A DNA stretch of 64,000 nucleotides from Erysipelotrichaceae bacterium (GTDB lineage Bacteria; Bacillota_I; Bacilli_A; RFN20; CAG-449): NCBI GenBank assembly GCA_015059045.1, contig SVBD01000001.1, positions 140-64,139 on the forward strand, given 5' to 3'. Positions 3,066 through 34,721 of the stretch are shown in pieces (within the stretch, counting starts at the first letter, position 1; each line of letters starts with the position of its first letter). The notes under the pieces were generated by a model. It was not told the DNA's origin, ran no database searches, and saw only the letters and a program-made list of their open reading frames with translations. The position numbers and the translations under genes were made by a program.

Positions 3066-3067
3066 TT

Positions 3068-3259: not shown

Positions 3260-3261
3260 TT

Positions 3262-3294
3262 AAGTCCTCGTTGATTAACGAGGATTTATTTTTT
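3262..3294 (+). terminator. Intrinsic terminator of the feo operon
   Basis: AAGTCCTCGTT-GATT-AACGAGGATTT followed by a T tract. Confidence 0.8.
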
Positions 3295-3333
3295 AAATTA
3301 ATTAGTATAAAATAATAAAAAAGAGGTGATTAA

Positions 3334-4110: not shown

Positions 4111-4143
4111 AAAAAACATCACTTCCTATGAGTGATGTTTTTA
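4111..4143. terminator. Bidirectional terminator between convergent genes
   Basis: AAAAAACATCACT-TCCTATG-AGTGATGTTTTT. Confidence 0.8.
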
Positions 4144-4145
4144 AT

Positions 4146-20006: not shown

Positions 20007-20039
20007 TTAAATCAATCAAACAATTTTTGCTAATTAATT

Positions 20040-20068
20040 ATCCCTTCTTAAAAGAAGGGATTTTTTTA
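20040..20068 (+). terminator. Intrinsic terminator of glgBP
   Basis: ATCCCTTCTT-AA-AAGAAGGGAT followed by a T run. Confidence 0.8.
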
Positions 20069-20120
20069 TTGTTTAAAAAAAATAAAACTTTTTAAGATAA
20101 ATTTTCCAAAAAAACCCTAA

Positions 20121-20328
20121 CTAATCAATATTGTATTAAATGAAAATATTAATGAAAATGATGTTTCTATTACTTCAAGTGAATTACTTGGTGAATCTAT
20201 TGAAATTAAATCTTCTTTCTTTGATGCAAGAATAAAAGTGGCTAATGAATATGAAAAAAGATCGTATGTCTATAGATATCATTTCTAAGTATACTGGATT
20301 GAGTTTAGAAGAAATTAATAAGTTATAA
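20121..20328 (+). pseudogene. Internally deleted Rpn-family (PD-(D/E)XK nuclease/putative transposase) remnant
   Basis: One frame reads LINIVLNENI...SELLGESIEIKSSFFDARIK, like an Rpn N-terminus. It is joined in another frame to MNMKKDRMSIDIISKYTGLSLEEINKL*, a typical Rpn C-terminal tail. Confidence 0.7.
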
Positions 20329-20379
20329 CAAACATGGCTAGAGGTGTAATACTCCTATTTTTTTAAAAAAAGTAATGGA

Positions 20380-20832
20380 TTAGCCATTACTTCTTACTTT
20401 TAATATTAATTCTTGAATTTCTTCGTCAGAATAAACTTTAATTCCATTTTGTTCTAATAATTCAGTGGTAAATCCCTTTCCTGAAACTACATTTCTTGAG
20501 AAGGTTCCATCATAAATTTGATGAACGCCACATGAAGGAGATCGTTCTTTAAAAATTGCATAACTTACATTATTTCTTTTAGCAATTTCTAATACTTTTA
20601 AAGCTCCATCCATATAGTTTTTAGTTACATCTAAATCGATTTCAGACATTACCTTATCTCCAACTCTTTCAGAAGGAATTCTAGGCGTAGGTAGACCACC
20701 AAATACTTCTGCACACACTGGAATATACTCAACTTTATCTTGTATTGATATTAATAAGTCTCTTGCGTTATTTCTACCATTCCATTTGCAATTTTCACCT
20801 AATAGGCAGTGACTAATAAGAATTTTTATCAT
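20380..20832 (-). CDS. DUF523 (2-thiouracil desulfidase-like) protein
   Basis: ISHCLLGENCKWNG, VCAEVFGGLPTPR and KERSPSCG motifs. Confidence 0.92.
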   Translation of the reverse strand: MIKILISHCLLGENCKWNGRNNARDLLISIQDKVEYIPVCAEVFGGLPTPRIPSERVGDKVMSEIDLDVTKNYMDGALKVLEIAKRNNVSYAIFKERSPSCGVHQIYDGTFSRNVVSGKGFTTELLEQNGIKVYSDEEIQELILKVRSNG

Positions 20833-20897
20833 AATTTTACTTCAACCTTTAATTTTTACTTCATTTAATATATTATATTAAACGCTAGGTGTTTTAA

Positions 20898-21545
20898 ATG
20901 GAAAAGTTAGAAATTATTAATCTTTATGATAAAGATGTCGTATTAAATATTAATTTGGCTAGTAAAGATTCACGTACTATTGGTCTTGTTGGTGGTCATT
21001 TATATTTAACATTAAAACCTAGTTATAATCTTCATTTGCTAAAAGTAAGATTAGAAAAAGTCTTTGATAGAAAGAAAATACATGAATTAAATTCTTCTTT
21101 CTATATCACTCCTTATTATGTCGATGTCTTAGGTGAAAGAAAAAGACTAGTAGACTTAAGTAAAGGGCAAAAACGAATTTCTAAAGAGGATTTCGTTGTT
21201 GAAAATGAAAAAGATTTACAAAAGAAAATTAAAACTTTAGCGAAAGATATTATTACTTCAAGAGTAATAAAATATCAAAAGATCATGAGCATACCAGTCA
21301 ACTATCAAGTAAAGATCACTAATATGAGGTCTAGTATTGGTAAAAATTACTATCAAAAGAAATTATTAACTTTTGATCATAATTTAATTCATTATTCTTT
21401 AGAAATCATAGATTCGGTAGTAATTCACGAATTAGCGCATTATTTTATCCAAAATCACTCACCTGAATTTTATAAAATAGTGCTAAATTATATGCCAAAT
21501 TATCGAAAAATAAGAAAAAAACTAATTATAGGAGAACGTCAATGA
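20898..21545 (+). CDS. YgjP/DUF45-family metallopeptidase-like protein
   Basis: IDSVVIHELAH...NHSPEFY motif. Confidence 0.85.
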   Translation: MEKLEIINLYDKDVVLNINLASKDSRTIGLVGGHLYLTLKPSYNLHLLKVRLEKVFDRKKIHELNSSFYITPYYVDVLGERKRLVDLSKGQKRISKEDFVVENEKDLQKKIKTLAKDIITSRVIKYQKIMSIPVNYQVKITNMRSSIGKNYYQKKLLTFDHNLIHYSLEIIDSVVIHELAHYFIQNHSPEFYKIVLNYMPNYRKIRKKLIIGERQ

Positions 21546-22264
21546 TTAAAGTAATTACATCAGTAAAAAATCAATTAATTAAAGATTTAGTTAGTTTAAA
21601 ATCTTCTTCAATTAAAAAGAAGGAGAATCGTTTTCTTATTGAAGGAGACGATTTAGTTTCACTTGCTTATGAAAATAATCAATTAGATATGATTTTAACA
21701 TTAGAGGAGAACTTATCTTATCCTGATATAGAGCAAATTATCACTTCAGAACAAATATTTGAAAAATTATCAAATAATAAATCACCTTCTAAAATTATTG
21801 GAGTTGCTCATTTTTCAAATAAAGAGATAAAAGGAGATAGAATCATCTTTTTGGATAATGTTCAAGACCCAGGAAATGTTGGAACAATTATTAGAACTGC
21901 ATTAAGCTTTTCTTATTCTGGAGTAGTTTTAGGTAACAATTCCGCATCGATGTATAATGATAAAGTCATTCAATCAACAAAAGGTGCTATATTTAAAATT
22001 CCAGTAATAGAAAATATTTCTTTATCTTTATTAAAAGATAAAGGATATCAAATTATTTCTACTTCATTACAAAATGCTTGTAACTATAAAGAATTTAATC
22101 CAAATGGTAAATTTGTTTTAGTCTTTGGAAATGAAGGACAAGGAATAAGTGAAGAAACATTGAAATTATCGGATGTATTAATTAAAATTAATATGGATCA
22201 TATCGATTCATTAAATGTAGCCATTGCTGCAGGAATTCTTATGAACCATTATCGAGGAGAATAA
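21542..22264 (+). CDS. TrmH/SpoU-family RNA methyltransferase
   Basis: QDPGNVGTIIRT, FGNEGQG and DSLNVAIA motifs. Confidence 0.93.
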   Translation: MIKVITSVKNQLIKDLVSLKSSSIKKKENRFLIEGDDLVSLAYENNQLDMILTLEENLSYPDIEQIITSEQIFEKLSNNKSPSKIIGVAHFSNKEIKGDRIIFLDNVQDPGNVGTIIRTALSFSYSGVVLGNNSASMYNDKVIQSTKGAIFKIPVIENISLSLLKDKGYQIISTSLQNACNYKEFNPNGKFVLVFGNEGQGISEETLKLSDVLIKINMDHIDSLNVAIAAGILMNHYRGE

Positions 22265-22963
22265 ATGAAAAGAGTAGTCATTTGTCTACATGGCTTGATT
22301 AAAGATGCCCCTCATGATTTTGTTCCATTTAAGAAATATGTTGAAGAACTAAATTTAGATTTCGAAGTGGACTTACTCATGTTGTATGATATTAGTAACA
22401 AGAAAACTTTTAAATTTAAAAACAAAGTTAAGTTACTACATAAAGTCATAGCCGATTACGAAGAAAAAGGATATGAAATTATCCTTGTCGGTTATTCTTT
22501 TTCATGTGGATTATGCGCGAAAATGGCTAAAAAACATAAAATTTCTAAAATTATTCTTGTCTCTCCAGTATTTAAAATTTTAACTAGAAAAGGTATTAAA
22601 TATTACTTTGGTTTATTTTTCAAATCATTTAAATTAAGAGCTAAAGCGACTGTTAACAAAAAGAAGAGAAATCGTTTAAAGAAAATGAATTCTTTATATT
22701 TATTTGATTTATTAGCGTCTTGTTTCTATTCATTATCTAGAACTAATAAACTTTATAAAAGAATTAAATGTCCATTATTTATTATGTTTGGAGAATTTGA
22801 TGATATTTCCGAACCAACATTAATTGGTAAAATAAGAAAACAAGTTCATCATAGTGTTAATGTTAATATTAAATTCTATAAAGGAGCAAATCACGTATTT
22901 ATCATGTCTAATAAGGTTGATAAAATTCCTTATTATAATGATATGATTAATTTTATTAATTAA
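22265..22963 (+). CDS. Alpha/beta-fold hydrolase
   Basis: CLHG, nucleophile elbow VGYSFS, GEFD and ANH. Confidence 0.8.
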   Translation: MKRVVICLHGLIKDAPHDFVPFKKYVEELNLDFEVDLLMLYDISNKKTFKFKNKVKLLHKVIADYEEKGYEIILVGYSFSCGLCAKMAKKHKISKIILVSPVFKILTRKGIKYYFGLFFKSFKLRAKATVNKKKRNRLKKMNSLYLFDLLASCFYSLSRTNKLYKRIKCPLFIMFGEFDDISEPTLIGKIRKQVHHSVNVNIKFYKGANHVFIMSNKVDKIPYYNDMINFIN

Positions 22964-22984
22964 CTTATATAAATATTTTGAATC

Positions 22985-23022
22985 AGCCAACTGCACTAGC
23001 AAATAGAAAGGTTGGCTTTTTT
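22985..23022 (+). terminator. Intrinsic terminator abutting the poly-G promoter
   Basis: AGCCAAC...GTTGGCT followed by a T run. Confidence 0.65.
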
Positions 23023-23054
23023 ATTGACAAAAATATGCGGGGGGGGGGTATAAT
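23023..23054 (+). promoter_or_regulatory. sigmaA promoter with G10 homopolymer in the spacer (copy 1)
   Basis: TTGACA (23024-23029), AAAATATGC, G10 (23039-23048), TATAAT (23049-23054); spacer 19 bp. Confidence 0.9.
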
Positions 23055-23095
23055 TTTTATGAATATATAATTAATTATATAAATGGAGGTTCCAT

Positions 23096-25357
23096 ATGAA
23101 TAATAAGAATAGAAAATCGTTTCGTTTTACATTATCTTTCCTTTTAGCGGCTTTTTTAGGTTTTGGAATGGTTTCTTGTGGAGAAAATAATAATCCTATA
23201 AGTAATCAATCATCTCAAGAATCTATTAGCGAAAATGTTAGTTCTAACGAAGATAGTTCATTTGTATCATCTGAATCAAGTGAAGAATCTTCTAATGAAG
23301 AAACATCAGAAGAAGAAAGTAGTGAATTACCACCATCTTCAGAAGTAACAAGTGAGGATGCAACATCAGAAGAAATAAGTTCAAATGTAACAAGTGAAGA
23401 ATCTTCTAATGAAGAAACATCAGAAGAAGAAAGTAGTGAATTACCACCATCTTCAGAAGTAACAAGTGAAGATGCAACATCAGAAGAAATAAGTTCAGAA
23501 GTAACAAGTGAAGAATCTTCAAGTGAAGAAACATCAGAAGAAGAAAGTAGTGAATTACCACCATCTTCAGAAGTAACAAGTGAAGATGCAACATCAGAAG
23601 AAATAAGTTCAGAAGTAACAAGTGAAGAATCTTCAAGCGAAGAAACATCAGAGGAAGAAAGTATCGAACATACTCATGTTTACGAAGAAGAAATATTAGT
23701 AGAACCAACATGTGAAAAAAAAGGTTATACAAAATATACATGTCATTGTGGTGATATTTATGTGGAAACTATTCCTGAATTAGGACACGATTTAACTTAT
23801 CATCCAGCTATTGCTCCATCATGTACAACTCCAGGATGTAATGATTATGAATCATGTAATAGATGTGATTATACAACTTTAGAAACTATACCAGCATTAG
23901 GTCATAATGAAGCAACAACCCCACAAATTGATCCTACATGTACTAGTGTAGGATATACAGAAGTAATATATTGCTCAGTATGTGATGAAATTTTTGTGGA
24001 GAAAGAAGAAATTCCAGCATTGGGACATTCATATGAAGAAGAAATATCAGTAGAACCAACATGTACAGAAGAAGGTTATACAAAATATACATGTCATTGT
24101 GGTGATATTTATGTGGAAACTATTCCTGAATTAGGACACGATTTAACTTATCATTCAGCTATTGCTCCATCATGTACAATACCTGGATGTAATGATTATG
24201 AATATTGTAATAGATGTGATTATACAACTTTAGAAGAAATACCAGCATTAGGTCATAATGAAGTAACAATCCCACAAATTGATCCAACATGTGAAGGAGT
24301 AGGATATACAGAAGTAATATATTGCTCAGTATGTGAAGAAATTTTAGTGGATAAAGAAGAAATTCCTGCAGTAGGACATACATATGAAGAAGATGTGATA
24401 GCTCCAACATGTACAGAAGAAGGTTATACAAAATATACATGTCATTGTGGCGATACATATAATGATAATTATGTAGATGTCTTAGGACATACATATGAAG
24501 AAGAAGTTGTAGAACCAACATGTACAGAAGAAGGTTATACAAAATATACATGTCATTGTGGCGGTATATATAAAAATAATTATGTAGATGCTTTAAATCA
24601 TAATTTTGTTGATGGATTATGTGAAAATTGTGGATGTGAATATTATTATAGTCAAGACTTATTATATGATTTAGTTGAAAACAATGGTGAATATTATTAT
24701 CGTGTTGAAGGTAATGGAAATAATAAAAATAGTGAAATTGTAATTCCTTCAATGCATAATGGATATCCAGTTAAAGAAATTGGATATGGAGCATTTAAAG
24801 GAGTCGGAATAACAAGTCTCATATTCTTAAAAAATTCAAATGTTGAATTAATAGAAGCTAGTGCATTTGAAAATTGCCAATATTTAAATAAAATAATTTG
24901 GCCTGATAGTTTAAAGAAAATAGAACAAAATGCTTTTTTTGGTTGTGTTAAACTTATTAGAATTAAATTTCCTGAATCTTTAGAAGAAATTGAACCTGGA
25001 ATATTCCAAAATTGTGAATCGTTAATTAGTGTTGAATTTCCAAGTAAAATTACTAAATTAAATGGTTATTTATTTGGTAATTGTTCTTCATTACAAAAAG
25101 TAGTGACCAAAGGTGAAATTGAAACTATTGGCGATAGTTTATTTGCATATTGTAATAAATTGGAGTACTTTATAATTCCTTGGACTGTAGAAAACATGGG
25201 TGGAAAAGTATTTGAAGGCTGTGACAATGTTGTCATTTATTGTGAATTTGAAGAAGAGCAATTTGGTTGGTCGGTATTATGGAATCAAGGTAATAGACCT
25301 GTTTATTGGAAAGGCCAATGGGAATATGTAGACGGAATTCCTACTCCAATTGAATAA
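23096..25357 (+). CDS. Surface lipoprotein with Ser/Glu repeats, Cys/His-rich repeats and BspA-type (LRR_5) leucine-rich repeats
   Basis: Lipobox-like MVSC after a signal peptide; PTC..GY...C..C...LGH repeats; repeated IxxxAFxxCxxL units; GGAGG RBS. Confidence 0.88.
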   Translation: MNNKNRKSFRFTLSFLLAAFLGFGMVSCGENNNPISNQSSQESISENVSSNEDSSFVSSESSEESSNEETSEEESSELPPSSEVTSEDATSEEISSNVTSEESSNEETSEEESSELPPSSEVTSEDATSEEISSEVTSEESSSEETSEEESSELPPSSEVTSEDATSEEISSEVTSEESSSEETSEEESIEHTHVYEEEILVEPTCEKKGYTKYTCHCGDIYVETIPELGHDLTYHPAIAPSCTTPGCNDYESCNRCDYTTLETIPALGHNEATTPQIDPTCTSVGYTEVIYCSVCDEIFVEKEEIPALGHSYEEEISVEPTCTEEGYTKYTCHCGDIYVETIPELGHDLTYHSAIAPSCTIPGCNDYEYCNRCDYTTLEEIPALGHNEVTIPQIDPTCEGVGYTEVIYCSVCEEILVDKEEIPAVGHTYEEDVIAPTCTEEGYTKYTCHCGDTYNDNYVDVLGHTYEEEVVEPTCTEEGYTKYTCHCGGIYKNNYVDALNHNFVDGLCENCGCEYYYSQDLLYDLVENNGEYYYRVEGNGNNKNSEIVIPSMHNGYPVKEIGYGAFKGVGITSLIFLKNSNVELIEASAFENCQYLNKIIWPDSLKKIEQNAFFGCVKLIRIKFPESLEEIEPGIFQNCESLISVEFPSKITKLNGYLFGNCSSLQKVVTKGEIETIGDSLFAYCNKLEYFIIPWTVENMGGKVFEGCDNVVIYCEFEEEQFGWSVLWNQGNRPVYWKGQWEYVDGIPTPIE
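23277..23663 (+). repeat. Coding tandem repeat, 114-bp unit (38 aa), about 3.4 copies
   Basis: CAAGTGAAGAATCTTC recurs at 23277, 23391, 23505 and 23619; the copies are nearly identical. Confidence 0.93.
23681..24604 (+). repeat. Coding duplication: two 351-bp units (117 aa) followed by two 111-bp units (37 aa)
   Basis: YEE..PTC units start at 23681, 24032, 24383 and 24494. Confidence 0.88.
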
Positions 25358-25521
25358 TAATCGATCAATTTTGAAGGTCACATTTGTGGCCTTTTAATTG
25401 TTGTTTCATTTTTTATGAATATAATTTGATTCTAAAATTCGATATTTATAGAATTGATATAATTTTAAAAATAAACATAATCTATTTGCATTTTATAAAT
25501 TTATATTTATAATATTAAAAG

Positions 25522-25750
25522 AAGCGTAAGAAGACAAAAGCCAATTAATAGGTAAAAGAGAGTTTCTCATATGGTGAAAGAGAAATAACTGAAAAGATTG
25601 AAACTTATCACTTCCTAGCTATGTTTCTGAACTAATAGTAAGTTACATCGGTTGTGCGTTATAGCTAAATGAAGGTGTCTAGAGAATATTATTCTAGAAA
25701 CTAAGGTGGTACCGCGTATTTCAACGTCCTTAGAAATAGGGACGTTTTTA
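25522..25750 (+). promoter_or_regulatory. T-box riboswitch (Ile)
   Basis: AGAGA and GGTGAAA stem I motifs, specifier ATC at 25607-25609, T-box AAGGTGGTACCGCG at 25703-25716, and terminator AACGTCCT...AGGGACGTTTTT. Confidence 0.92.
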
Positions 25751-25770
25751 TATTTTAAGGAGGAAAATTC

Positions 25771-28515
25771 ATGGAATTAAAAGACACATTATTGATGGGT
25801 AAAACTAATTTTGAAATGAGAGGTAACCTATCTAATAAAGAACCATTAATGTTAAAGAAATGGGAAGAAGATAATCTTTATAAGAAGGAACAAGAAAAGA
25901 ATAAAGGCAATAGACAATATGTACTACATGATGGTCCACCATACGCTAATGGGGATATGCACTGTGGACATATGTTAAATCGTATCTTAAAAGATATTAT
26001 TTTACGTTATAAATCAATGTCTGGTTTTGATACACCTTTCTATCCTGGTTGGGATACTCATGGTTTACCAATTGAAAATGCAGTAACTAAATCAGGAGTA
26101 AATAGAAAAACTACTCCTCCAGCAGAATTTAGAAAAAAATGTGAAGAATATGCTTATAAGCAAGTTGATCGTCAAATGGCTCAAATCAAGCGTTTAGGAA
26201 TTGGAGCTGATTTTGATGATAAATATATCACATTACAAAAAACATTTGAAAAAGATCAAATTAGAGTATTTAAAGAAATGGCTCTAAAAGATTTCATTTA
26301 TAAAGGGTTAAAACCTGTTTATTGGTCTCCATCAAGTGAATCTGCTCTTGCAGAAGCTGAAATTGAATACTTTGATGTTGAAGCTAAAACTATCTTTGTT
26401 CGTTTCAAAGTAGTAGATGGAAAAGGTGTTTTAAATCCTGAAACAGATTACTTTGTAATCTGGACTACAACTCCTTGGACAATTCCTGCTAACTTAGCTA
26501 TCTGTGTTAATGAATTACTAGAATATGGTTTATTTAAAACAGAAAAAGGTAATTTAGTTTTCTTAACATGCTTACAAGATGATTTAAAAGCTAAATTAGG
26601 TTTAGAAACTTGTGAATTAGTTAAAACATTTAAAGGTAAAGAATTTGAAGGAATTACTACTAAACATCCTTTATACGATAGAGAATCAATTTTAATTTTA
26701 GGTAATCACGTAACTGCTGATGCAGGTACAGGATGTGTACATACTGCTCCAGGTCATGGTGCTGATGACTTTAATGTCGGCGCTAAATATCATTTACCAC
26801 CATACTGTCCAGTTGATGAACATGGTATGATGGATGAAACTTGTGGAGAAAGATTACAAGGATTATTCTATGAAAAAGCAAATGAAGAAGTTCTAGTAAT
26901 GTTACAAGAAGTTGATGCTTTATTACATATGGAAAGTATTACTCACTCATATCCACATGACTGGAGAACTAAAAAACCTGTTATCTTTAGAGCGACTCCT
27001 CAATGGTTCTGTTCTATTGATAAAATTAGAAGTGAATTATTAGAACAAATTGATAAAGTTAATTGGACTCCATCTTGGGGTAAATTAAGAATGCACAATA
27101 TGATTAAAGATAGAGGAGATTGGTGTATTTCTCGTCAAAGATTATGGGGTGTACCAATTCCAATTATCTATAATGAAGATGGAACTCCAATTATGGAAAA
27201 AGAAGTCTTTGATCATATTGAAGAATTAGTTGGTCAATTTGGATCAAATGTTTGGTTTGAAAGAGAAGCAAAAGATTTATTACCAGATGGATACACAAAT
27301 CCAGCTTCACCAAATGGAAACTTCAGAAAAGAAACAGACATCATGGATGTATGGTTTGATTCAGGCTCATCATTCTTTACAGAAATAAGAAGAGGATATA
27401 ACTTCCCAGTTGATTTATACTTAGAAGGTAGTGACCAATATCGTGGTTGGTTTAACTCTTCATTAATTATCTCAGTTGCAACTAAAGGTGTTGCTCCATA
27501 TAAAAATGTTTTATCACATGGATTTATTCTTGATGGTAAAGGACAAAAAATGTCTAAATCATTAGGTAATGGTATTGATCCTAATAAGATTATCAATGTC
27601 TATGGGGCTGATATCTTAAGATTATGGTGTGCAACAGTAGATTATCAAAGTGATGTTAGAATTTCTGAAGATTTAATTAAGAAAGTATCAGATACATATC
27701 GTAAGATTAGAAACACATTTAAATTCATGTTAGCAAACCTTAACGATACAGAAACTGAATCATTTAATTATGAATTAAATCATGTTGAAACATTTACTAA
27801 ATTAGGTCAATATGTTCTAGCAAGTTTAGAAGATACAAAGAATAAAGTAATTGCTTATTACGATAACTATGATTTCTCAAATGCAATGTCAGCTTTATTA
27901 AACTTCTTAACTGGAGATTGTTCAGCTCTTTACTTCTCAATTGCAAAAGATCCTTTATATTGTAATAGTAAAGATGATTCTTTAAGAAGAGAAATTCAAA
28001 CAGTTATCTATCATGTAGTTCATACAATGAGTAGATTATTTGCGCCTGTATTATGTTTTACAATGGATGAAGTATATCAAAATATTCCTCATAAAGATAA
28101 AGAACATATTTCATTAGAGGATATGCCTCAAGTTACTCATGAATATGATGCTTCATTATTAGAAGAATTTAATTTATTTAAAGAAGTTAGAGATCAAGTA
28201 ATGAAAGCTTTAGAAGAAGCAAGAGCAAATCAAGTAATTCGTTCATCTCAAGAAGCTAAAGTAACTTTAAATATTAAAGACAGTAAAGCTAAAGCATTAT
28301 TTGAATCATTTACTAAAGAAGAATTAAGATTATTCTTTATTGTAAGTGAAGTAGAATTATCTAGTGAAGTTCAACCTACAGACTTTGAATTAGTAAGTGT
28401 CAATGTTATTCACCACGAAGGACAAAAGTGTGAAAGATGTTGGAATTACTTTGATGAATTAGTAAAACATGAAGAAAATTGCATTTGTGCAAGATGTAAA
28501 AAGGTAATTGAATAA
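25771..28515 (+). CDS. ileS: Isoleucine--tRNA ligase (type 1)
   Basis: DGPPYANG, HCGH (HIGH variant), WTTTPWT, GSDQYRGWF, KMSKS and a C-terminal Zn finger. Confidence 0.97.
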   Translation: MELKDTLLMGKTNFEMRGNLSNKEPLMLKKWEEDNLYKKEQEKNKGNRQYVLHDGPPYANGDMHCGHMLNRILKDIILRYKSMSGFDTPFYPGWDTHGLPIENAVTKSGVNRKTTPPAEFRKKCEEYAYKQVDRQMAQIKRLGIGADFDDKYITLQKTFEKDQIRVFKEMALKDFIYKGLKPVYWSPSSESALAEAEIEYFDVEAKTIFVRFKVVDGKGVLNPETDYFVIWTTTPWTIPANLAICVNELLEYGLFKTEKGNLVFLTCLQDDLKAKLGLETCELVKTFKGKEFEGITTKHPLYDRESILILGNHVTADAGTGCVHTAPGHGADDFNVGAKYHLPPYCPVDEHGMMDETCGERLQGLFYEKANEEVLVMLQEVDALLHMESITHSYPHDWRTKKPVIFRATPQWFCSIDKIRSELLEQIDKVNWTPSWGKLRMHNMIKDRGDWCISRQRLWGVPIPIIYNEDGTPIMEKEVFDHIEELVGQFGSNVWFEREAKDLLPDGYTNPASPNGNFRKETDIMDVWFDSGSSFFTEIRRGYNFPVDLYLEGSDQYRGWFNSSLIISVATKGVAPYKNVLSHGFILDGKGQKMSKSLGNGIDPNKIINVYGADILRLWCATVDYQSDVRISEDLIKKVSDTYRKIRNTFKFMLANLNDTETESFNYELNHVETFTKLGQYVLASLEDTKNKVIAYYDNYDFSNAMSALLNFLTGDCSALYFSIAKDPLYCNSKDDSLRREIQTVIYHVVHTMSRLFAPVLCFTMDEVYQNIPHKDKEHISLEDMPQVTHEYDASLLEEFNLFKEVRDQVMKALEEARANQVIRSSQEAKVTLNIKDSKAKALFESFTKEELRLFFIVSEVELSSEVQPTDFELVSVNVIHHEGQKCERCWNYFDELVKHEENCICARCKKVIE

Positions 28516-29123
28516 TGAAAGAAAAGTTAGTTAATTTACATGAATTATGTAAAAAATACCATATATACTTCTATTTGATTATGGTAGGATTAATCGCTCT
28601 TGATTTAACTACTAAATATGTGATGGAAGCAATTTTACTTGATGCACCAAATCATAGGATAGAAGTAATTGATGGCTTCTTTACCTTGAGTTTAGTTTAC
28701 AATCCAGGAGCATTCTCTGGAATGCTAGGTGATAGTATTTTTGGAAGAATTATTTTAATGTTATTGTCTCTTATATGTGGAGTAGTAATGTTATGGTATT
28801 TCATTAAATCATTTTCTAAAATGGGTAAATTAGAGTTGTTTGGTATTACTTTAGCAATTCCAGGTACCTTAGGAAACTTATGGGATCGTACTTTACAAGT
28901 CTTTGGTCTACAAGAAGGAGTAATCGACTTCTTGGAATTTGATTTGGGCTTTATGGTATGGAATACATTTAATATCGCTGATTCATTACTTGTAATTGGT
29001 ATTATTGCTTTTGCAGTTGGATATCTAATTAGAGACAGTAAAGAAGAGAAGAAAAAAGAACAAGAACGTTTGAAATTCTATGAAGAAAAGAAAAACGAGG
29101 AAGAAGAGTTAAAAGATGAATAA
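28515..29123 (+). CDS. lspA: Lipoprotein signal peptidase II
   Basis: DLTTK, NPGAFS, GNLWDR, VIDF and FNIAD motifs; ileS-lspA-rluD synteny. Confidence 0.93.
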   Translation: MKEKLVNLHELCKKYHIYFYLIMVGLIALDLTTKYVMEAILLDAPNHRIEVIDGFFTLSLVYNPGAFSGMLGDSIFGRIILMLLSLICGVVMLWYFIKSFSKMGKLELFGITLAIPGTLGNLWDRTLQVFGLQEGVIDFLEFDLGFMVWNTFNIADSLLVIGIIAFAVGYLIRDSKEEKKKEQERLKFYEEKKNEEEELKDE

Positions 29124-30030
29124 AGTAGTAGTCACAAATGAATTTGAACAAACTCGTTTAGATGCATTTTTAGTAACTCTTTTAGATGGTAAATCAAGAA
29201 GTTACGCTCAAAAGGTAATTGAAGAAGGTAAATGTCTAGTCAATGGTAAAACAAGCAAACACTCTTATAAAATAAGAGTGAATGATGTAATTGAATATGA
29301 TTTATTAGAAGAAAAACAATTAAACTTAGAAAAGAAAGACATCTCTTTAGATATTATTTATCAAGATGAAGATATCGTTGTGATTAATAAACCTAGAGGA
29401 ATGGTGGTTCACCCTTCTAATGGTCATTATGATGGAGATACATTAGTTAATGCATTATTATATTCAATCAAAGATTTATCAAGCATTAATGGGGTAGTGC
29501 GCCCAGGTATTGTTCATCGTATTGATAAAAATACTTCTGGCTTACTTGTAGTCGCTAAAAATGATACCGCTCATATTTTCCTTCAAGAACAATTAAAGGA
29601 TCATTCAATGCATAGAGAATACTATGCTTTAGTGGAAGGAGTAATTCCTCATACTGATATTAAAATTGATGCGCCAATTGGAAAAGATCCTAAAGATAGA
29701 TTAAAAAGAGCAATTGATATCTATGAAGGAAAAGACGCAGTAACTCATGTTCACGTTGAAGAAAGATTTAAAGAACATACACTTGTTTCTTGTAGACTTG
29801 AAACTGGTAGAACTCATCAAATTAGAGTTCATTTAAGATATATTAATCACCCAATTGTTGGTGATCCAGAATATGGTAAAAGACATCAAAAATTCTCTTG
29901 TTCAGGACAAATGTTACATGCGTATAAATTAACTTTTATTCATCCAACAACAAAGAAAGAGATGACATTTACTTGTCCTAGAGATAGTGAATTTGAATGT
30001 GTATTAGAACAAGCAAGAAATTTAAAATAA
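29116..30030 (+). CDS. rluD: RluA/RluD-family pseudouridine synthase
   Basis: S4 domain, NKPRGMVVHP, HRIDKNTSG and TGRTHQIRVH motifs. Confidence 0.9.
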   Translation: MNKVVVTNEFEQTRLDAFLVTLLDGKSRSYAQKVIEEGKCLVNGKTSKHSYKIRVNDVIEYDLLEEKQLNLEKKDISLDIIYQDEDIVVINKPRGMVVHPSNGHYDGDTLVNALLYSIKDLSSINGVVRPGIVHRIDKNTSGLLVVAKNDTAHIFLQEQLKDHSMHREYYALVEGVIPHTDIKIDAPIGKDPKDRLKRAIDIYEGKDAVTHVHVEERFKEHTLVSCRLETGRTHQIRVHLRYINHPIVGDPEYGKRHQKFSCSGQMLHAYKLTFIHPTTKKEMTFTCPRDSEFECVLEQARNLK

Positions 30031-30059
30031 AAAAAGTATCCGCTCGGATACTTTTTTTT
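30030..30059 (+). terminator. Intrinsic terminator of the ileS operon
   Basis: AAAAAAGTATCCG-CT-CGGATACTTTTTTTT. Confidence 0.85.
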
Positions 30060-30104
30060 GTTGATGAATTAACTAAGAAAGTTATAATCTGTGCACATAA
30101 TAAC

Positions 30105-30137
30105 ATTGACAAAAATATGCGGGGGGGGGGGTATAAT
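30105..30137 (+). promoter_or_regulatory. sigmaA promoter with G11 homopolymer in the spacer (copy 2)
   Basis: TTGACA (30106-30111), AAAATATGC, G11 (30121-30131), TATAAT (30132-30137); spacer 20 bp; otherwise identical to 23023-23054. Confidence 0.9.
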
Positions 30138-30165
30138 AATTATAAATTAAATTAGGGGATAAAAT

Positions 30166-31326
30166 ATGGGACAATTAGATAATTATAACCAAATGATTAA
30201 TGAACTTGAAATTTTTAAAAATTTAAAAATTTCTTCGATGGTTTTAGAAAAAGAAAGTATAACGTTAAAAAATAATATTAATGAACAAATGTTAGCAAAT
30301 ATTTTTGATAATTCATATGATCCAAATATAAAACAATATGTTAAAGAATTTTTAAAACAACGGGATGATAATAATTTCATTGATAAATTAATTTGTAAAG
30401 CAAAACAATCATTAAAAAATAAAATTTATGAAAGCGAATATAAAATGCGTAAATTAAATTGTAAAAAAATCATCATTAATTTTCTTTTCTCAATATTAAT
30501 TCTTTGCCTTTTATCTACTGGGATATTTTTATTTATAAAAGAAGGATATTCAAACAATGCAACAAGTCTTACTTTAGGGATAATTCCAACTTTTATAACT
30601 ATTGGTGCTTATTATTTATGGAAATCTGGAAACAATACAAAGTCAATAGGACTTATAATGTTAGAAATTGGATATTTTATTATTTCTTTGCTCATAATGT
30701 ATGCCGGTGGTAATGCAACTCATAAAGGTTCTTTACCTTTTTATATTTTTCATTATTTGTTATTAGTGGCAATATTTACACTTATTATTAATTGGATACA
30801 CATATTAAAAAATATAAGGTCAAAAAAAGAGAATTTACATGCAATAGTTCTAAATTGTAAAAATTACGATTTCAATATGTTTGAATATTATTTTAATAAA
30901 TTAAATTATTTAGAAAATCAATTAAGTGAATTGAAAAAAAATATAAATAAAACAAATGAATTAATTACAGTTGCTAAAAGAAAAGCTAAAATTTTACCTC
31001 AAAAATATATTGATTACATTAGTCCGTTTGATAATGTTCCTGCCGTGTTTGATATTTTTAATATTGCAAAAGATAAAAGAGCATTTACAATCAATGAAGT
31101 TATTAATGTCTATATTGAAGATGAATTTAAAAAGGAGCAAAGACTACATATGAATACTATGGAAGAATTAAATAAAAAAAGAAATAATTTTTATAATAAT
31201 GTCATAAATCAAAATAATCAATTGCTAAATGATATTAAAAAACAAGGCAAATATTTGTCGGAAATTGAAAATAAAATTAAAAACATAGAAATACCTTCTA
31301 CAATTGATGTAAGAATTATAGATTAA
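30166..31326 (+). CDS. Hypothetical membrane protein (about 4 central TM helices flanked by coiled-coil-like regions)
   Basis: 386-aa ORF, very AT-rich, AGGGG RBS; no family recognised. Confidence 0.75.
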   Translation: MGQLDNYNQMINELEIFKNLKISSMVLEKESITLKNNINEQMLANIFDNSYDPNIKQYVKEFLKQRDDNNFIDKLICKAKQSLKNKIYESEYKMRKLNCKKIIINFLFSILILCLLSTGIFLFIKEGYSNNATSLTLGIIPTFITIGAYYLWKSGNNTKSIGLIMLEIGYFIISLLIMYAGGNATHKGSLPFYIFHYLLLVAIFTLIINWIHILKNIRSKKENLHAIVLNCKNYDFNMFEYYFNKLNYLENQLSELKKNINKTNELITVAKRKAKILPQKYIDYISPFDNVPAVFDIFNIAKDKRAFTINEVINVYIEDEFKKEQRLHMNTMEELNKKRNNFYNNVINQNNQLLNDIKKQGKYLSEIENKIKNIEIPSTIDVRIID

Positions 31327-31383
31327 ATTATGATATAAAAATGTAATTATTATTAATATGTAGCAATAAGGAGGAAAGGATAA

Positions 31384-32289
31384 TTAGACAGTTTTCTTAT
31401 AATTAACGAAGTTAATTTTACAAATGTGAGATAATTCTTCTTTTCCGAATTTATTAATAAATTCTTGAGTGAATTCGTCTACTTTTGTAGATGCACCTTT
31501 TGGAATATCCATTTGATATTTTTCATTTAATACTTTCATTTCTTTTAAGAAACAGTATCTAGCAATCATTGAACTTACTGCAATTGAAGGATACCAAGAT
31601 TCACCTTTAGTTTTAAATGTAATATTTTTAGTTACAACTTTTTCTTCATATTGAAGATATTCATAATACTTATCTACCTCACAGAATTGATCAATAAAGC
31701 AAGGAGTATCATTTTCTTTTATTTTTTCTTTGACATTTAGTAAAGCTTTATTATGTAATAGGGCTTTAATTTTATTCATAGAATAACCATTATTTACTAA
31801 CTCATTATATTTATCGTTCGTGCATGTTAATTTAGAAAATACGACTTTATCTAAAAGAGAAGGAACAATTTCTAAAATCTTTTCATCAGTTAATTTTTTT
31901 GAATCATTAACTTTTAATTCCTTTAATAAGTCGATATCACTTTCTTTAATATAAGAAGCAACAACGATTACTGGACCAAAGAAATCACCAGTTCCTACTT
32001 CATCAGAACCAATTTGATTATTAACATTTAACCAATAATAATCAATCTTTTCCTTTTTAGGATTAATAGTTGCAGTTACATCCCAAATTAACGCTTCATT
32101 TAATGCATTTGCTCCAGAAAAAACAGCTTTTAATCCTTTTTTAGAAGAGTAAATGGTAATAACAACATCATCAATGGTTTTAGTTTTCCATAAGATATAT
32201 TCACCCACATCAAAAACTAGATCTTCCTTATAGAAGATTTCCATCTTTTCTAATGTTTCTTGAGTAATCTTTAAAGTTACGTAGTCCAT
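31384..32289 (-). CDS. rnhC: Ribonuclease HIII
   Basis: IGSDEVGTGDFFGP, DSKKL and IDQF motifs with an N-terminal extension; divergent from mutS2 as in Bacilli. Confidence 0.93.
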   Translation of the reverse strand: MDYVTLKITQETLEKMEIFYKEDLVFDVGEYILWKTKTIDDVVITIYSSKKGLKAVFSGANALNEALIWDVTATINPKKEKIDYYWLNVNNQIGSDEVGTGDFFGPVIVVASYIKESDIDLLKELKVNDSKKLTDEKILEIVPSLLDKVVFSKLTCTNDKYNELVNNGYSMNKIKALLHNKALLNVKEKIKENDTPCFIDQFCEVDKYYEYLQYEEKVVTKNITFKTKGESWYPSIAVSSMIARYCFLKEMKVLNEKYQMDIPKGASTKVDEFTQEFINKFGKEELSHICKINFVNYKKTV

Positions 32290-32408
32290 TTTTTCACCTG
32301 TTTCTATTGTATCACTTTTATTCTCACTACTAAAAGATAATTTAAATTATTAGAACATTTATTAAATCTATTAATTTAATTAATGTTTTTTGGTATAAAT
32401 ATAATTAG

Positions 32409-34721
32409 GTGATTATGGTGAAAGATATTTATAAAGCCTTTGAATTTGATATTATCAAAGAAAATTTAGAAAAATATGTTAAAGGTGAAGTTGCCTTAAG
32501 ACAAATTAGAGAACTAGAAATGTTTACTTCTTCAGAAGAACTTAAGAAAGAATTAAGTTATTTAGAAGAAATGATTTCATATACTTTAAAATATCGTTCA
32601 CTTGTTATTAATCCTCATAATGATATAGTCTATCAATTAATTTCACTTACTAAAGATGGAGTAGGATCAATTGAGTTCTTTTATCAAATATCATCCCTTT
32701 TAGAAAACGTTGATATTTTAAAAGAAGAATCATCTAAAGATGATAAATATCCTTTAATCATGGAAATGCTATCAAATTTAATTTCTATTCCTTCATTAAA
32801 GAATCAAATTGATCACATTATTACTAGAGATTTACAAATCTCTGATAATGCTTCAAGTGAATTAAGAAGTATTAGACGTAATTTAAGAAATGAAGAACAA
32901 GGACAAAGTAAATTAATTAATTCTCTTGTTTTAAGATATAAAGATATTTTAAATAGTGAAAAATATACAATGAGAAATTCTTCTTATGTATTACCAGTTA
33001 AATCCAGTTATAAAAATTCTGTAAGTGGAATTGTTGTAGATGAATCAGATAGTAAATTAACGGTTTTTATTGAACCAACTGAAATCTTAGAATCAAATAA
33101 TAAAATCGCCAGATTAAAAGAAAAAGAGTATGAAGAAATTAAAAGAATTCTTAAAGAGCTCTCTATTTATACTTTAAAATATATTGAACCATTAAGATCT
33201 AACATTGATATTGTTAATAGATTAGATTTCCTTTTAGCGAAGGCTAATTATGCTTTAGATATTAAAGCGGAAGTAGCAAATATTACTAATGAAAGAGTGA
33301 TATATTTAAAAAATGCTCGCCATCCTTTAATTGATAAAGATAAAGTAGTCAGTAATTCATTCTTTTTAGATAAACAAAAGATTATGGTCATTTCTGGCCC
33401 TAATGCTGGTGGTAAAACAGTTTGTTTAAAAGTTATTGGCTTACTTGTTATTATGAATCAATGTGGACTTGCTTTGCCAACAAGTGAAAAGGCTAATTTA
33501 TGTTTCTTTGATAAGATTTTTGTTGATATGGGTGATAATCAATCATTAATGGATAATTTATCTACTTTCTCAGGTCATATTAAAAATTTAAAAGAAATTT
33601 TAGATGAAGTTACTAAAGACTCTTTAGTAATTTTAGATGAACTTGGAACAGGAACTTCACCTTTAGAAGGAGAAGCTTTAGGTGTAGGTGTTATTACTCA
33701 TCTTAACAATTTAGGTTGTTTTGGTATTTTTACAAGCCATTATGAAGGATTAAAATCTTTTGCTTTAGAAAATGAATATATATTAAATGCTTCAATGGCA
33801 TTTGATGAAGAGAATATTGTTCCTACTTACCATCTTCGTTTGGGAGTTGCAGGTAAATCATATGGAATTGAATTAAGTCAAAGAATGGGTGTAGAAGAAA
33901 ATGTTATTTCTTTATCTAAAGAATATTTAGAAAATAAAGTAAAATCTGATAAAGAAGTCACTCTTGCACTTTTAAACCAAAGACTTGAAGAAAACGAATT
34001 TATTAAAATGGAACTTCTTAGAAAAGAAGAAGAACTAGATAAAAGAAATATCGAATTAGAAAGAGAAATCGAAAAATATAAGCGTTTAGAGAATAAAATC
34101 TTCTTGGAAAGTGAAAAGGAAAAAGAAAAACTTATTCAAAAAGCTAAAGAAGAAATTGAAGAAATTATGGATGAATTTAAAAAGTCATCTTCTTATAAAA
34201 TGCACGAAGTAATTGCTTCCAAAAAGAAACTTGATGATCTTTCTTCTATAGAAGAAGAGGAAGAATCAATTAGCAAAGTGATCAATGTAAATGATTACGT
34301 AAGAATTATCGATTCTGATATTACAGGAAAAGTAATTAGAATCAAAGGGGATAAGATTTCTTTAATTAGTGAACAAGGAATGAATTTAAATGTTAAATTG
34401 TCACAAGTAGAAAGATACTTCCCTAAAAAGAAAGTAAAAAAAGTTCAAACTACTTCACTTTTTAAAACTACAAAAATTGTTAAATTAGAATGCAATTTAA
34501 TCGGTTTAAGAGTTGAAGAAGCTCTTTTGGAACTTGATAAATATATTGATGATGCCATTGTGGCAAGATATAAAGAAGTAAGAATTGTTCATGGATCAGG
34601 AACTGGAGCGTTAAGAGAAGCAGTTCATAATTATTTAAATCGAAGAAAAGAAATAAAGTCATATCGTCTTGGTGGCCTTGGAGAAGGTGGCGTTGGCGCA
34701 ACGGTGGTATATTTTAAATGA
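32409..34721 (+). CDS. mutS2: MutS2 endonuclease/ribosome collision sensor
   Basis: SGPNAGGKT, LSTFSGH, LDELGTGT and a C-terminal Smr domain (VHGSGTGALR). Confidence 0.94.
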   Translation: MIMVKDIYKAFEFDIIKENLEKYVKGEVALRQIRELEMFTSSEELKKELSYLEEMISYTLKYRSLVINPHNDIVYQLISLTKDGVGSIEFFYQISSLLENVDILKEESSKDDKYPLIMEMLSNLISIPSLKNQIDHIITRDLQISDNASSELRSIRRNLRNEEQGQSKLINSLVLRYKDILNSEKYTMRNSSYVLPVKSSYKNSVSGIVVDESDSKLTVFIEPTEILESNNKIARLKEKEYEEIKRILKELSIYTLKYIEPLRSNIDIVNRLDFLLAKANYALDIKAEVANITNERVIYLKNARHPLIDKDKVVSNSFFLDKQKIMVISGPNAGGKTVCLKVIGLLVIMNQCGLALPTSEKANLCFFDKIFVDMGDNQSLMDNLSTFSGHIKNLKEILDEVTKDSLVILDELGTGTSPLEGEALGVGVITHLNNLGCFGIFTSHYEGLKSFALENEYILNASMAFDEENIVPTYHLRLGVAGKSYGIELSQRMGVEENVISLSKEYLENKVKSDKEVTLALLNQRLEENEFIKMELLRKEEELDKRNIELEREIEKYKRLENKIFLESEKEKEKLIQKAKEEIEEIMDEFKKSSSYKMHEVIASKKKLDDLSSIEEEEESISKVINVNDYVRIIDSDITGKVIRIKGDKISLISEQGMNLNVKLSQVERYFPKKKVKKVQTTSLFKTTKIVKLECNLIGLRVEEALLELDKYIDDAIVARYKEVRIVHGSGTGALREAVHNYLNRRKEIKSYRLGGLGEGGVGATVVYFK

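What the first reader, a model, noticed from the sequence alone, without database searches (positions are those of the whole stretch)
23023..30137. Shared poly-G promoter cassette in front of two unrelated envelope genes: a candidate reusable phase-variation switch
Seen: ATTGACAAAAATATGC-(G)n-TATAAT occurs at 23023-23054 (G10) and 30105-30137 (G11). These are the only long G runs I found in this AT-rich window. The copies are identical except for run length, and their flanks and downstream genes share nothing. Both have perfect -35 and -10 hexamers with spacers of 19 and 20 bp, and both sit just after a terminator. Established: sigmaA needs about 17 bp, and slippage in spacer homopolymers switches expression (Neisseria porA poly-G, Mycoplasma vlp poly-A). 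Inference: G8 would be ON and both loci are OFF or weak as assembled. The same module at non-homologous genes suggests a genome-wide set of contingency promoters, spread by copying or kept by a common binding factor.
Basis: partly seen in the sequence, partly recalled or inferred. Interest (0 to 1): 0.85.

Follow-up and report, generated by a model that had tools for sequence, protein, structure and literature searches.

The report
Poly-G switch promoters in gut Bacilli
Two identical promoters with a slippery run of G's between their two recognition boxes sit in front of two unrelated envelope genes of an uncultured gut bacterium, and they most likely act as random on/off switches of a kind long known in pathogens but here used across a whole uncultured lineage.

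Summary
ATTGACAAAAATATGC-Gn-TATAAT stands at 23023-23054 (G10) and 30105-30137 (G11). These are the only G/C runs of 7 or more in the window, and the two copies share nothing beyond this 32-33 nt core. They precede a size-variable BspA-LRR lipoprotein and an orphan membrane protein.

They are two of five poly-G spacer promoters in this 1.44-Mb, 29%-GC uncultured Bacilli genome. The same design occurs in 95 of 401 genomes of its order (reversed control 0; poly-C version 2 of 401).

Run length varies:
- G9, G10 and G12 at site 1 in near-identical strains.
- Between orthologous and paralogous cassettes in relatives.
- G7 to G13 over 47 contigs of a distant gut bacterium with the identical fixed part, where interrupted runs stay constant.

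Ordinary promoters of this genome peak at a 17-bp spacer, so 19 and 20 bp should be weak or off.

Best reading: slipped-strand phase-variable promoters of the porA/tp0126 kind, new members in a new lineage. Not shown: the start site, the effect of length, and switching within a lineage. Unexplained: assembled spacers cluster at 18-19 bp, G is always on the sense strand, C precedes the run, and AAA follows the -35.

The parts
22979..23022 (+). hairpin followed by a U-run after the upstream hydrolase gene (22265-22963); plausible intrinsic terminator that insulates site 1
   Evidence: -15.1 kcal/mol, z -3.4, 1 of 200 shuffles folds as well; not called by the consensus scan
23024..23029 (+). site 1, -35 hexamer TTGACA
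23030..23038 (+). site 1, fixed part of the spacer AAAATATGC
23039..23048 (+). site 1, G10 run; G12 in run X3 and G9 in run X5
   Evidence: table 4: GG put in behind 23038 in X3; 1 left out at 23045 in X5
23049..23054 (+). site 1, -10 hexamer TATAAT; spacer 19 bp as assembled
23096..25357 (+). gene 1: 753-aa lipoprotein (lipobox MVSC read by eye, Ser/Glu-rich repeats, Cys repeats, C-terminal BspA-type LRR) with in-frame tandem repeats of 114, 351 and 111 nt; RBS GGAGG at 23085-23089
   Evidence: (LRR_5, E 5.4e-35)
30029..30058 (.). two-way terminator hairpin after rluD (29116-30030)
30061..30088 (+). second promoter-like site TTGATG-16-TATAAT upstream of site 2 (consensus match only)
30106..30111 (+). 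site 2, -35 hexamer TTGACA
30112..30120 (+). site 2, fixed part of the spacer AAAATATGC
30121..30131 (+). site 2, G11 run; contigs of the probable source run break inside it after the tenth G
   Evidence: records 7 and 8 overlap at 30101-30130
30132..30137 (+). site 2, -10 hexamer TATAAT; spacer 20 bp as assembled
30166..31326 (+). gene 2: 386-aa protein with a central block of hydrophobic helices between coiled-coil-like parts (read by eye); no Pfam family; no relative in 30 genomes of the family

Best explanation
Each site is a housekeeping-sigma (sigma-A type) promoter. Its spacer holds a fixed 9-nt part and a hypermutable run of G on the sense strand that abuts the -10 box. Slipped-strand mispairing at replication adds or removes a G. 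This moves the perfect -35 in or out of register with the perfect -10 (17 bp at G8, 18 at G9). Transcription of the gene behind it is thereby switched, heritably and reversibly, between high, low and off in single lineages. The two genes are a size-variable BspA-LRR surface lipoprotein and an orphan membrane protein. At the assembled lengths (19 and 20 bp) most cells of the sampled population should express both genes weakly or not at all. Shown: the architecture, its excess over chance, its recurrence through the order, run-length polymorphism between strains and samples, and the 17-bp preference of ordinary promoters in this genome. Inferred: the start site, the effect of length on transcription, the ON length, and the rate and reversibility of switching.
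For: Architecture.
- Perfect TTGACA and TATAAT hexamers at both sites.
- Only 4 other perfect pairs at 17 bp exist in the whole genome.

Runs are kept by selection.
- G/C runs of 6-7 are depleted: 3 seen, 21-33 expected.
- Runs of 8 or more are in excess: 7 seen, 0.45-0.84 expected.
- 5 of the 8 runs of 7 or more abut a -10 box behind a -35-like hexamer.

Polymorphism.
- Site 1 is G10 in X1, G12 in X3 and G9 in X5, on contigs whose flanks differ by only a few letters.
- X1's contigs break with 30-nt overlaps exactly at 23023-23052 and 30101-30130. The two sites share only 26 nt, so a 31-mer graph needs reads of another run length to branch there. A G10 allele at site 2 would do it (my inference).
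- Orthologous cassettes differ between species: G042 G11 against G022 G10, and G9 against G10.
- Four cassettes in G013 read G8, G10, G11 and G12.
- At a 60%-GC gut locus with the identical fixed part, 47 uninterrupted runs span G7:1, G8:1, G9:9, G10:17, G11:8, G12:5, G13:6. In contrast, 14 interrupted runs all read G6-A-G4.

Class.
- TTGACA-N4-12-G8+-N0-5-TANNNT occurs in 95 of 401 genomes of the order, in 7 of 8 families, with 0 hits for the reversed control.

The -35 is under selection although out of register. That makes sense only if in-register lengths occur (inference).

Calibration.
- Ordinary TTGACA plus near-consensus -10 pairs in this genome peak at 17 bp: 25, against 4-14 at other spacings.

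Gene content.
- Of 36 sites read, 29 precede lipoproteins, pilin-like, secreted or membrane proteins, 5 precede regulators and 2 precede others (read by eye; Pfam support).

Precedent.
- Poly-G between the -35 and -10 of T. pallidum tp0126 is optimal at 17 bp, and N. meningitidis porA works the same way (passages of PMC7864442).
Against: - No RNA data. No start site and no length-to-expression link is shown.
- All run-level data are contigs, which cannot show minor alleles. Depth in X3 and X5 is only about 11-12, and homopolymer errors could mimic plus or minus 1 and could cause the contig breaks.
- Site 2 is not bridged by any listed contig of X3-X5.
- Assembled spacers cluster at 18-19 bp (78 of 135 listed sites, by eye), with only 12 at 17. 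The distant locus also has its mode at 19 bp. This fits populations that are mostly off, but it equally fits an optimum other than 17.
- mutS and mutL are intact, so no general slippage-prone background exists.
- The near-total use of G rather than C (95 against 2 of 401 genomes) is not required by a pure spacer-length switch.
Confidence: 0.75

Rival explanations
1. The promoters do vary in length, but their working length is not 17 bp. With a G-tract, and the A-tract that often follows the -35, the active spacer would be 18-19 bp. The sites would then be on or partly on as assembled, and slippage would turn them down.
For: - Spacer tally of 135 listed sites (by eye): 18 bp 31, 19 bp 47, 17 bp 12, 16 bp 5.
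- The mode is G10 (19 bp) in 17 of 47 contigs of the distant locus.
- AAA follows the -35 in about 57 of 135 poly-G promoters (by eye). It does so in only 2 of 25 ordinary 17-bp promoters and 36 of 592 TTGACA words of this genome.
- G on the sense strand is nearly obligatory, which hints at a structural or contact role for the run.
Against: - In the two tested precedents the optimum is 17 bp despite a poly-G spacer (tp0126 and porA, passages of PMC7864442).
- Ordinary promoters of this genome peak at 17.
- There is a second hump at 15 bp (14 sites) with a dip at 16-17. This is what populations that are mostly off on either side of 17 would give.
- Coding and RBS-type runs in the family also centre on G9 (by eye), which points to a mutational preferred length rather than a functional one.
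Confidence: 0.12
2. The G-run is a fixed promoter element, for instance one that supplies G at -14 as in extended -10 promoters. The length differences would then be neutral drift or assembly error, with no switching role.
For: - The run always abuts the -10, or lies 1 nt off it, and is always G on the sense strand. G therefore stands at -14 whatever the length.
- mutS and mutL are intact.
- All length data come from assemblies.
Against: - An element independent of the -35 would not keep a perfect TTGACA at a constant 9 nt from the run in so many lineages.
- Ranges of G7-G13 and G9-G12 exceed assembly error, and interrupted runs of similar composition are invariant: 14 of 14 read G6-A-G4.
- One or two G's would suffice for a -14 contact, yet runs of 6-7 are purged from the genome.
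Confidence: 0.08
3. On origin: the two window copies are one cassette copied from one gene to the other, or a portable element, or are held identical by a dedicated binding protein. They would not be two independently shaped promoters.
For: - 16 + 6 nt are identical outside the run.
- A third promoter in the genome shares ATTGACAAAAATA.
- Several relatives carry 3-8 copies of one cassette: G021, G013, G192, G063, G595, G751.
- In G013 the shared stretch runs about 45 nt further upstream, in front of different genes.
- The identical fixed part stands in family f8 (G083) and in a 60%-GC gut bacterium, there also before a protein with the same Cys repeat.
Against: - Identity stops at the hexamers, and I saw no terminal repeats or duplicated flanks when reading the alignment.
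- Twelve of the shared letters are the consensus hexamers. AAA after the -35 and C before the run are class-wide, which leaves about 4-5 free positions.
- A scan of 241 million records for exactly this word is bound to find chance matches.
- There is no palindrome or other sign of a protein site.
Confidence: 0.05

Closest known systems
Neisseria meningitidis porA promoter (poly-G between -35 and -10)
   Same: A homopolymeric G run lies in the spacer of a sigma-70-type promoter of a surface protein gene, and run length sets the spacer and hence expression (passages of PMC7864442; abstract of PMC3639595 seen in the listing).
   Different: porA is a single locus in a Gram-negative pathogen. Here the design is repeated five times per genome and through an order of uncultured gut Bacilli. 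The run abuts the -10, with a fixed 9-nt part on the -35 side. No expression data exist here.
Treponema pallidum tp0126 and tpr genes (poly-G tracts in several promoters)
   Same: A set of poly-G promoters precedes unrelated or paralogous envelope genes. tp0126 has the run between -35 and -10 with its optimum at 17 bp. Tracts of 7-11 G vary within isolates, with 9 G commonest (passages of PMC7864442).
   Different: In tprL the run overlaps the -10 region and does not change the spacing (same passages). The organism is a spirochaete pathogen. Here perfect hexamers and a stereotyped layout are shared across many genera.
Mycoplasma hyorhinis vlp genes (poly-A in the promoter spacer)
   Same: Size-variable surface lipoproteins with in-frame tandem repeats stand behind promoters whose spacer homopolymer slips, in a wall-less relative within the same broad group (recalled, not from a call; the Vlp system is listed in PMC11868660).
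   Different: The vlp genes are paralogues that share their whole 5' region, and the run is poly-A. Here the genes are unrelated, the shared part is 32-33 nt, and the run is poly-G in a 29%-GC genome.
Campylobacter and Helicobacter poly-G contingency loci
   Same: Many G8-G13 tracts per small genome are associated with surface structures, and intermediate run lengths are depleted (recalled; PhasomeIt paper PMC6321876 seen as listing and abstract only).
   Different: Those tracts are mostly inside reading frames, and those organisms lack mutS/mutL-type repair (recalled). Here about 45 of 100 tracts in the family are promoter spacers (by eye), and mutS and mutL are present.

Membership tests
Simple-sequence-repeat phase-variable promoter (porA / tp0126 type) | A homopolymeric tract of about 8 or more lies between recognisable -35 and -10 hexamers | tested here: met
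   TTGACA-N9-G10/G11-TATAAT at both sites
Simple-sequence-repeat phase-variable promoter (porA / tp0126 type) | Tract length differs between strains or samples while the flanks stay the same | tested here: met
   site 1 is G10 (X1), G12 (X3) and G9 (X5). Site 2 is not bridged by listed contigs of other runs. The class also varies between orthologues and over 47 contigs of a distant locus.
Simple-sequence-repeat phase-variable promoter (porA / tp0126 type) | Length heterogeneity within one population or clone | tested here: inconclusive
   contigs of X1 break with 30-nt overlaps exactly at both runs, as a mixed run length would cause. Contigs cannot show minor alleles, and sequencing error could do the same.
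Simple-sequence-repeat phase-variable promoter (porA / tp0126 type) | Promoter activity depends on tract length, with an optimum near a 17-bp spacer | not testable with these tools
   Only indirect: ordinary promoters of the genome peak at 17 bp.
Simple-sequence-repeat phase-variable promoter (porA / tp0126 type) | Transcription starts just downstream of the -10 box | not tested
   No RNA run was laid.
Simple-sequence-repeat phase-variable promoter (porA / tp0126 type) | The controlled genes encode surface or envelope functions | tested here: met
   BspA-LRR lipoprotein and a membrane protein; 29 of 36 sites of the class read (by eye, with Pfam support for a subset).
Mycoplasma vlp-type shared promoter region of a lipoprotein gene family | The genes behind the shared promoter are paralogues with a homologous 5' region | tested here: not met
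   proteins unrelated, best E 0.62; identity limited to the 32-33 nt core
Mobile promoter-bearing element (MITE- or IS-like) | Shared sequence beyond the promoter, terminal repeats, duplicated target sites | tested here: not met
   no similarity outside the core in 80 nt on either side. I ran no separate scan for inverted repeats.

The most novel reading that the evidence does not exclude
The cassette is more than a spacer of variable length. It would be a conserved, portable promoter design made of TTGACA, an A-tract, a C junction and a sense-strand G-run that abuts the -10. Its working geometry would differ from the canonical 17 bp, or it would be read by a dedicated factor. It would also move between genes and between distant gut Firmicutes: the identical fixed part stands in a 29%-GC Bacilli genome and in a 60%-GC human-gut bacterium, both times before proteins with the same Cys repeat.
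Probability: 0.15. Interest if true: 0.75.

Novelty: new member of a known kind. Interest (0 to 1): 0.5.

Why it matters
Phase variation through slippery repeats has been worked out almost wholly in cultured pathogens. I found no paper on it for these organisms. Here a stereotyped poly-G promoter marks envelope genes, pilin-like genes and a few regulators. It does so across an uncultured, small-genome order of gut Bacilli and in patches of its class. If it works as proposed:
- The run lengths in metagenomes are a direct read-out of which surface antigens are on in a gut population.
- The pattern TTGACA-N9-Gn-TATAAT gives a cheap way to list contingency genes in genomes that cannot be grown.
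- The strict strand choice and the clustering at 18-19 bp give testable questions about how G-tract spacers are read by RNA polymerase.

Tried and rejected
- The consensus promoter scan has no power in this AT-rich DNA: 83 sites found against 87.9 expected. I used it only for the terminator at 30029-30058 and to note the second promoter-like site.
- Relatives of gene 2: none in the genome-contig scan, none in 30 genomes of the family, and only unnamed clusters in the protein atlas. No orthologous promoter could therefore be compared.
- Places next to ileS in other genomes: none of 80 loci around IleRS relatives (best 77% identity) had a TTGACA...G-run...TATAAT cassette. Five G7-G10 runs were seen there in other contexts.
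- Idea that mismatch repair is missing: rejected. MutS_I lies in an open 843-aa frame and MutL_C in an open 609-aa frame.
- Known RNA element: no Rfam match at gathering score in 20000-33000.
- Mobile element: rejected for the window copies.
- Assembly artefact from poly-G read tails: rejected by reasoning. The runs sit in mid-contig at one fixed place in a promoter, and X1 contigs at depth 57-67 match the assembled lengths without gaps.
- Site 2 in other strains: none of the listed pieces of X3, X4 or X5 bridges 30121-30131 (table 8, which is cut). Nothing can be said.
- Literature: 78, 1, 0, 158 and 75 papers matched the five searches. None of those listed deals with poly-G promoters in these organisms. 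'RF39' was my own guess at the order and is not confirmed by any search. Of PMC7864442 and PMC11868660 I saw passages only; of the other papers I saw listings and abstract starts. Supplements were not consulted.
- Tallies marked 'by eye' (about 45 of 100 rows; spacer lengths, C before the run and AAA after the -35 in 135 distinct listed sites; gene classes) were read from the outputs, not scripted. 73 further matches and 20 were not listed and are not in the tallies. The flank filter (not-C at the left end, not-G at the right) drops some runs, for example three of the four G013 sites.

Full report
**What is there.** Searches confirm the motif at both places. Site 1 is TTGACA (23024-23029), AAAATATGC, G10 (23039-23048) and TATAAT (23049-23054). 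Site 2 is TTGACA (30106-30111), AAAATATGC, G11 (30121-30131) and TATAAT (30132-30137). The spacers are 19 and 20 bp. No further copy appears at up to 3 mismatches in the window, and none of 100 shuffles gave two matches. The whole genome holds only these two at up to 2 mismatches. That genome is G000: 1,441,741 bases, 33 contigs, 28.7% G+C, 95% complete. An alignment of about 190 nt around each site shows identity only in ATTGACAAAAATATGC, the run and TATAAT.

Site 1 follows a hairpin with a U-run (22979-23022; -15.1 kcal/mol, z -3.4). Site 2 lies 47 nt behind a strong two-way terminator (30029-30058). A further promoter-like site, TTGATG-16-TATAAT at 30061-30088, stands between them.

**The genes.**
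- Gene 1 (23096-25357, RBS GGAGG 7 nt before the ATG) is a 753-aa lipoprotein. By eye it has a lipobox, Ser/Glu-rich repeats and Cys repeats. Its C-terminal BspA-type LRR is supported by Pfam LRR_5, E 5.4e-35.
- Gene 1 carries in-frame tandem repeats of 114 nt x3.4, 351 nt x2.2 and 111 nt x2, the build of a size-variable surface protein.
- Gene 2 (30166-31326) is a 386-aa protein with a central hydrophobic block and no Pfam family. It has no relative in a scan of species genomes or in 30 genomes of its family, and only unnamed look-alikes in the atlas.
- The two proteins are unrelated.
- Neighbours are housekeeping genes: ileS, lspA, rluD, rnhB and mutS2.

**The organism.** The nearest IleRS loci carry titles such as 'Bacilli bacterium' MAG (77% identity) and 'Erysipelotrichaceae bacterium' MAGs from ruminants, at 52-64%. 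Runs that hold the stretch are animal gut and faeces metagenomes.

**More than chance, and part of a set.**
- In G000, G/C runs of length 5 are as expected (140 seen, 130-181 expected).
- Runs of 6 and 7 are depleted (2 and 1 seen; 18.6-28.5 and 2.7-4.5 expected).
- Runs of 8 or more are in excess (7 seen, 0.45-0.84 expected).
- Five of the eight runs of 7 or more abut a -10-like box behind a -35-like hexamer, always with G on the sense strand:
  - The two window sites.
  - C15:39158 (TTGACA-N9-G9-T-TATAAT), before a 154-aa membrane protein.
  - C21:27301 (ATTGACAAAAATAGTCAA-G9-TATTAT), before a frameshifted lipoprotein-like frame.
  - C21:28663 (TTGATT-N6-G9-TATAAT), before three small proteins without a family.

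**In relatives.**
- With perfect hexamers the design occurs at 16 sites in 7 of 41 relatives, all in the window's family.
- With TANNNT as the -10 it occurs in 95 of 401 genomes of the order (7 of 8 families, 27 of 70 genera). The reversed control gave 0 in every genome.
- The same pattern with C's instead of G's occurs in 2 of the same 401 genomes.
- In a class-wide sample it occurs in 30 of 401 genomes. Outside the order that is 19 of 351, confined to 5 of 27 families. Some genomes hold 13-20 sites.
- A census of all G runs of 8 or more in the 31 genomes of the family gave 100 rows. By my reading about 45 are promoter spacers of this kind and about 10 more are weaker candidates. The rest lie just before start codons, right after lipobox Cys codons, in Ser-rich coding parts, or elsewhere. 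At most one is a poly-C spacer.

**Does the run vary?** Only contigs were available.
- In the probable source run X1 (depth about 57-67) the contigs match G10 and G11 without gaps. They break with 30-nt overlaps at exactly 23023-23052 and 30101-30130.
- The two sites share only 26 nt, so a 31-mer graph should not branch there unless reads with another run length exist. A G10 allele at site 2 would create exactly these two nodes. This is my inference, and sequencing error could do the same.
- In X3 a contig with 4 other letters over 288 nt has GG put in (G12). In X5 a contig with 14 other letters over about 345 nt has one G left out (G9).
- Between species, cassettes with identical flanks differ: G042 G11 against G022 G10, and G9 against G10.
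- G013 has four cassettes with G8, G10, G11 and G12.

A metagenome scan for the exact fixed part plus run plus TATAAT found 66 contigs.
- 64 are one locus of a 60%-GC bacterium, many from records labelled human gut.
- The cassette there stands before a 137-aa Cys-repeat protein and a 247-aa protein with a TAT signal and lipobox.
- Its 47 uninterrupted runs read G7:1, G8:1, G9:9, G10:17, G11:8, G12:5 and G13:6.
- All 14 interrupted runs read G6-A-G4. Three further contigs have other interrupted forms.
- 12 of the 14 interrupted runs are on contigs where the two downstream genes are missing.
- Interrupted runs thus act as an internal control for assembly error, and they suggest the pure run is kept only while there is a gene to switch. 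These contigs may, however, be one lineage.

**What length is 'on'?** In G000, TTGACA paired with a near-consensus -10 and no G-run peaks sharply at 17 bp: 25 pairs against 4-14 at each other spacing from 10 to 26. The polymerase of this organism therefore has the usual preference. G8 would give 17 bp and G9 18 bp. The assembled 19 and 20 bp should be weak or off. This is inference. For precedent, passages of PMC7864442 state that the tp0126 poly-G between -35 and -10 is optimal at 17 bp. They also state that porA works by spacer length, and that tprE/G/J need eight G or fewer.

**What it controls.** Of the 16 perfect-hexamer sites in the family, 6 precede lipoproteins, 5 membrane proteins, 3 regulators (two LytTR, one AraC type) and 2 others, one of them a VWA-domain protein. 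Twenty further sites were picked from three other families:
- 3 pilin-like proteins (N_methyl confirmed for the 2 tested).
- 5 signal-anchored secreted proteins.
- 3 lipoproteins, one again with BspA LRR.
- 6 membrane proteins.
- 1 Acyl_transf_3 acyltransferase.
- 2 LytTR regulators.

The classes were read by eye, with Pfam support for a subset.

**Against, and unexplained.**
- There is no RNA evidence of any kind.
- mutS and mutL are intact.
- Among 135 distinct listed sites, the spacers by eye are: 12-13 bp 3, 14 bp 7, 15 bp 14, 16 bp 5, 17 bp 12, 18 bp 31, 19 bp 47, 20 bp 10, and 21-23 bp 6. Assembled states thus avoid 16-17 and pile up at 18-19 and 15.
- This fits populations that are mostly off on either side of 17, together with a mutational preferred length near G9-G10. 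Coding runs also centre on G9. It also leaves room for a non-canonical optimum.
- The base before the run is C in about four fifths of the listed sites.
- AAA follows the -35 in about 57 of 135 poly-G promoters, but in only 2 of 25 ordinary 17-bp promoters and 36 of 592 TTGACA words of G000.
- The choice of G over C is nearly absolute. A G at -14, as in extended -10 promoters, would explain the last point (inference from recalled promoter biology). The others have no explanation yet.

**Origin of the two identical copies.** Twelve of the 22 shared letters outside the run are the consensus hexamers. Of the other ten, the A-tract and the C are class-wide, which leaves about 4-5 free positions. 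With ten promoter pairs in the genome, chance identity is not negligible. The same fixed part recurs in another family (G083) and in the 60%-GC bacterium. On the other hand, many relatives carry several copies of one cassette. In G013 the shared stretch extends about 45 nt upstream in front of different genes, so copying happens in this lineage. The Cys repeat of gene 1 is weakly shared with the protein behind the 60%-GC cassette (E 1e-4). I leave this open. No sign of a binding site was found.

**Verdict.** It is untested for the ON length and for expression, and open for copying and a binding factor. It works like porA and tp0126 and meets the sequence-level criteria of that kind. The functional criteria could not be tested. 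It is a new member of a known kind, notable for its spread through an uncultured gut lineage and for four regularities that a plain spacer-length switch does not require.

Noticed in passing
window 23277-24590: Gene 1 holds in-frame tandem repeats (114 nt x3.4 at 97%, 351 nt x2.2, 111 nt x2). Contigs of all four runs break there, and X3 shows 3-nt indels at 23610 and 23651, so the protein is probably size-variable as well.
   Followed up: partly
window 30061-30088: A second promoter-like site (TTGATG-16-TATAAT) lies between the rluD terminator and site 2. If real, gene 2 would have a basal promoter, and its transcript would run through the G-run.
   Followed up: no
L102 (G000:C21:24500-30500), about 2360-4190: An insert of about 1.8 kb is flanked by a duplicated 5' part of a Gate-domain (nucleoside recognition) gene. 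It carries both poly-G promoters of contig C21, three small proteins without a family and a frameshifted lipoprotein-like frame.
   Followed up: partly
L103 (G000:C10:12500-16500), 1946-2032 on the - strand: A G8 run lies inside a 28-codon leader frame whose stop overlaps the start of a 160-aa frame, next to an XRE-like gene. None of the three frames past the run fuses to the downstream frame.
   Followed up: partly
genomes G015, G019, G021, G043, G045 and others (rows): G8-G12 runs also lie directly after the lipobox Cys codon, or in Ser-rich coding parts, of lipoprotein genes, and 5-12 nt before start codons. One coding run differs between three genomes (G9, G11, G12). This points to translational phase variation beside the promoter type.
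   Followed up: no
L104-L169 (metagenome contigs): One locus of a 60%-GC gut bacterium has the identical TTGACAAAAATATGC-Gn-TATAAT, with G7-G13 over 47 contigs. Where its two downstream genes are missing, the run is mostly interrupted (G6-A-G4) and invariant.
   Followed up: partly
G000 contigs C9 (end), C16 (start), C19 (start), C13:93-117: Small contigs of 4-5.6 kb end in A44-A65 runs, and one has an internal A25 followed by TA repeats. These may be assembly artefacts or foreign sequence in the bin.
   Followed up: no
G000:C17:188000-188300 (outside the window): A G/C-richer stretch holds a repeated unit (…CGTTATACGGAGATTTG…) and a C8 run that is not in a promoter context.
   Followed up: no
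L008 and L018 (G001, G013), about 20-110 nt behind the -10: Orthologous binding-protein-like lipoprotein genes behind poly-G promoters (A+G9 against G8) have a long conserved leader (…ATGTAAGCGCTTAC…). A similar word stands before a G9 run in G017. This may be a regulatory leader.
   Followed up: no
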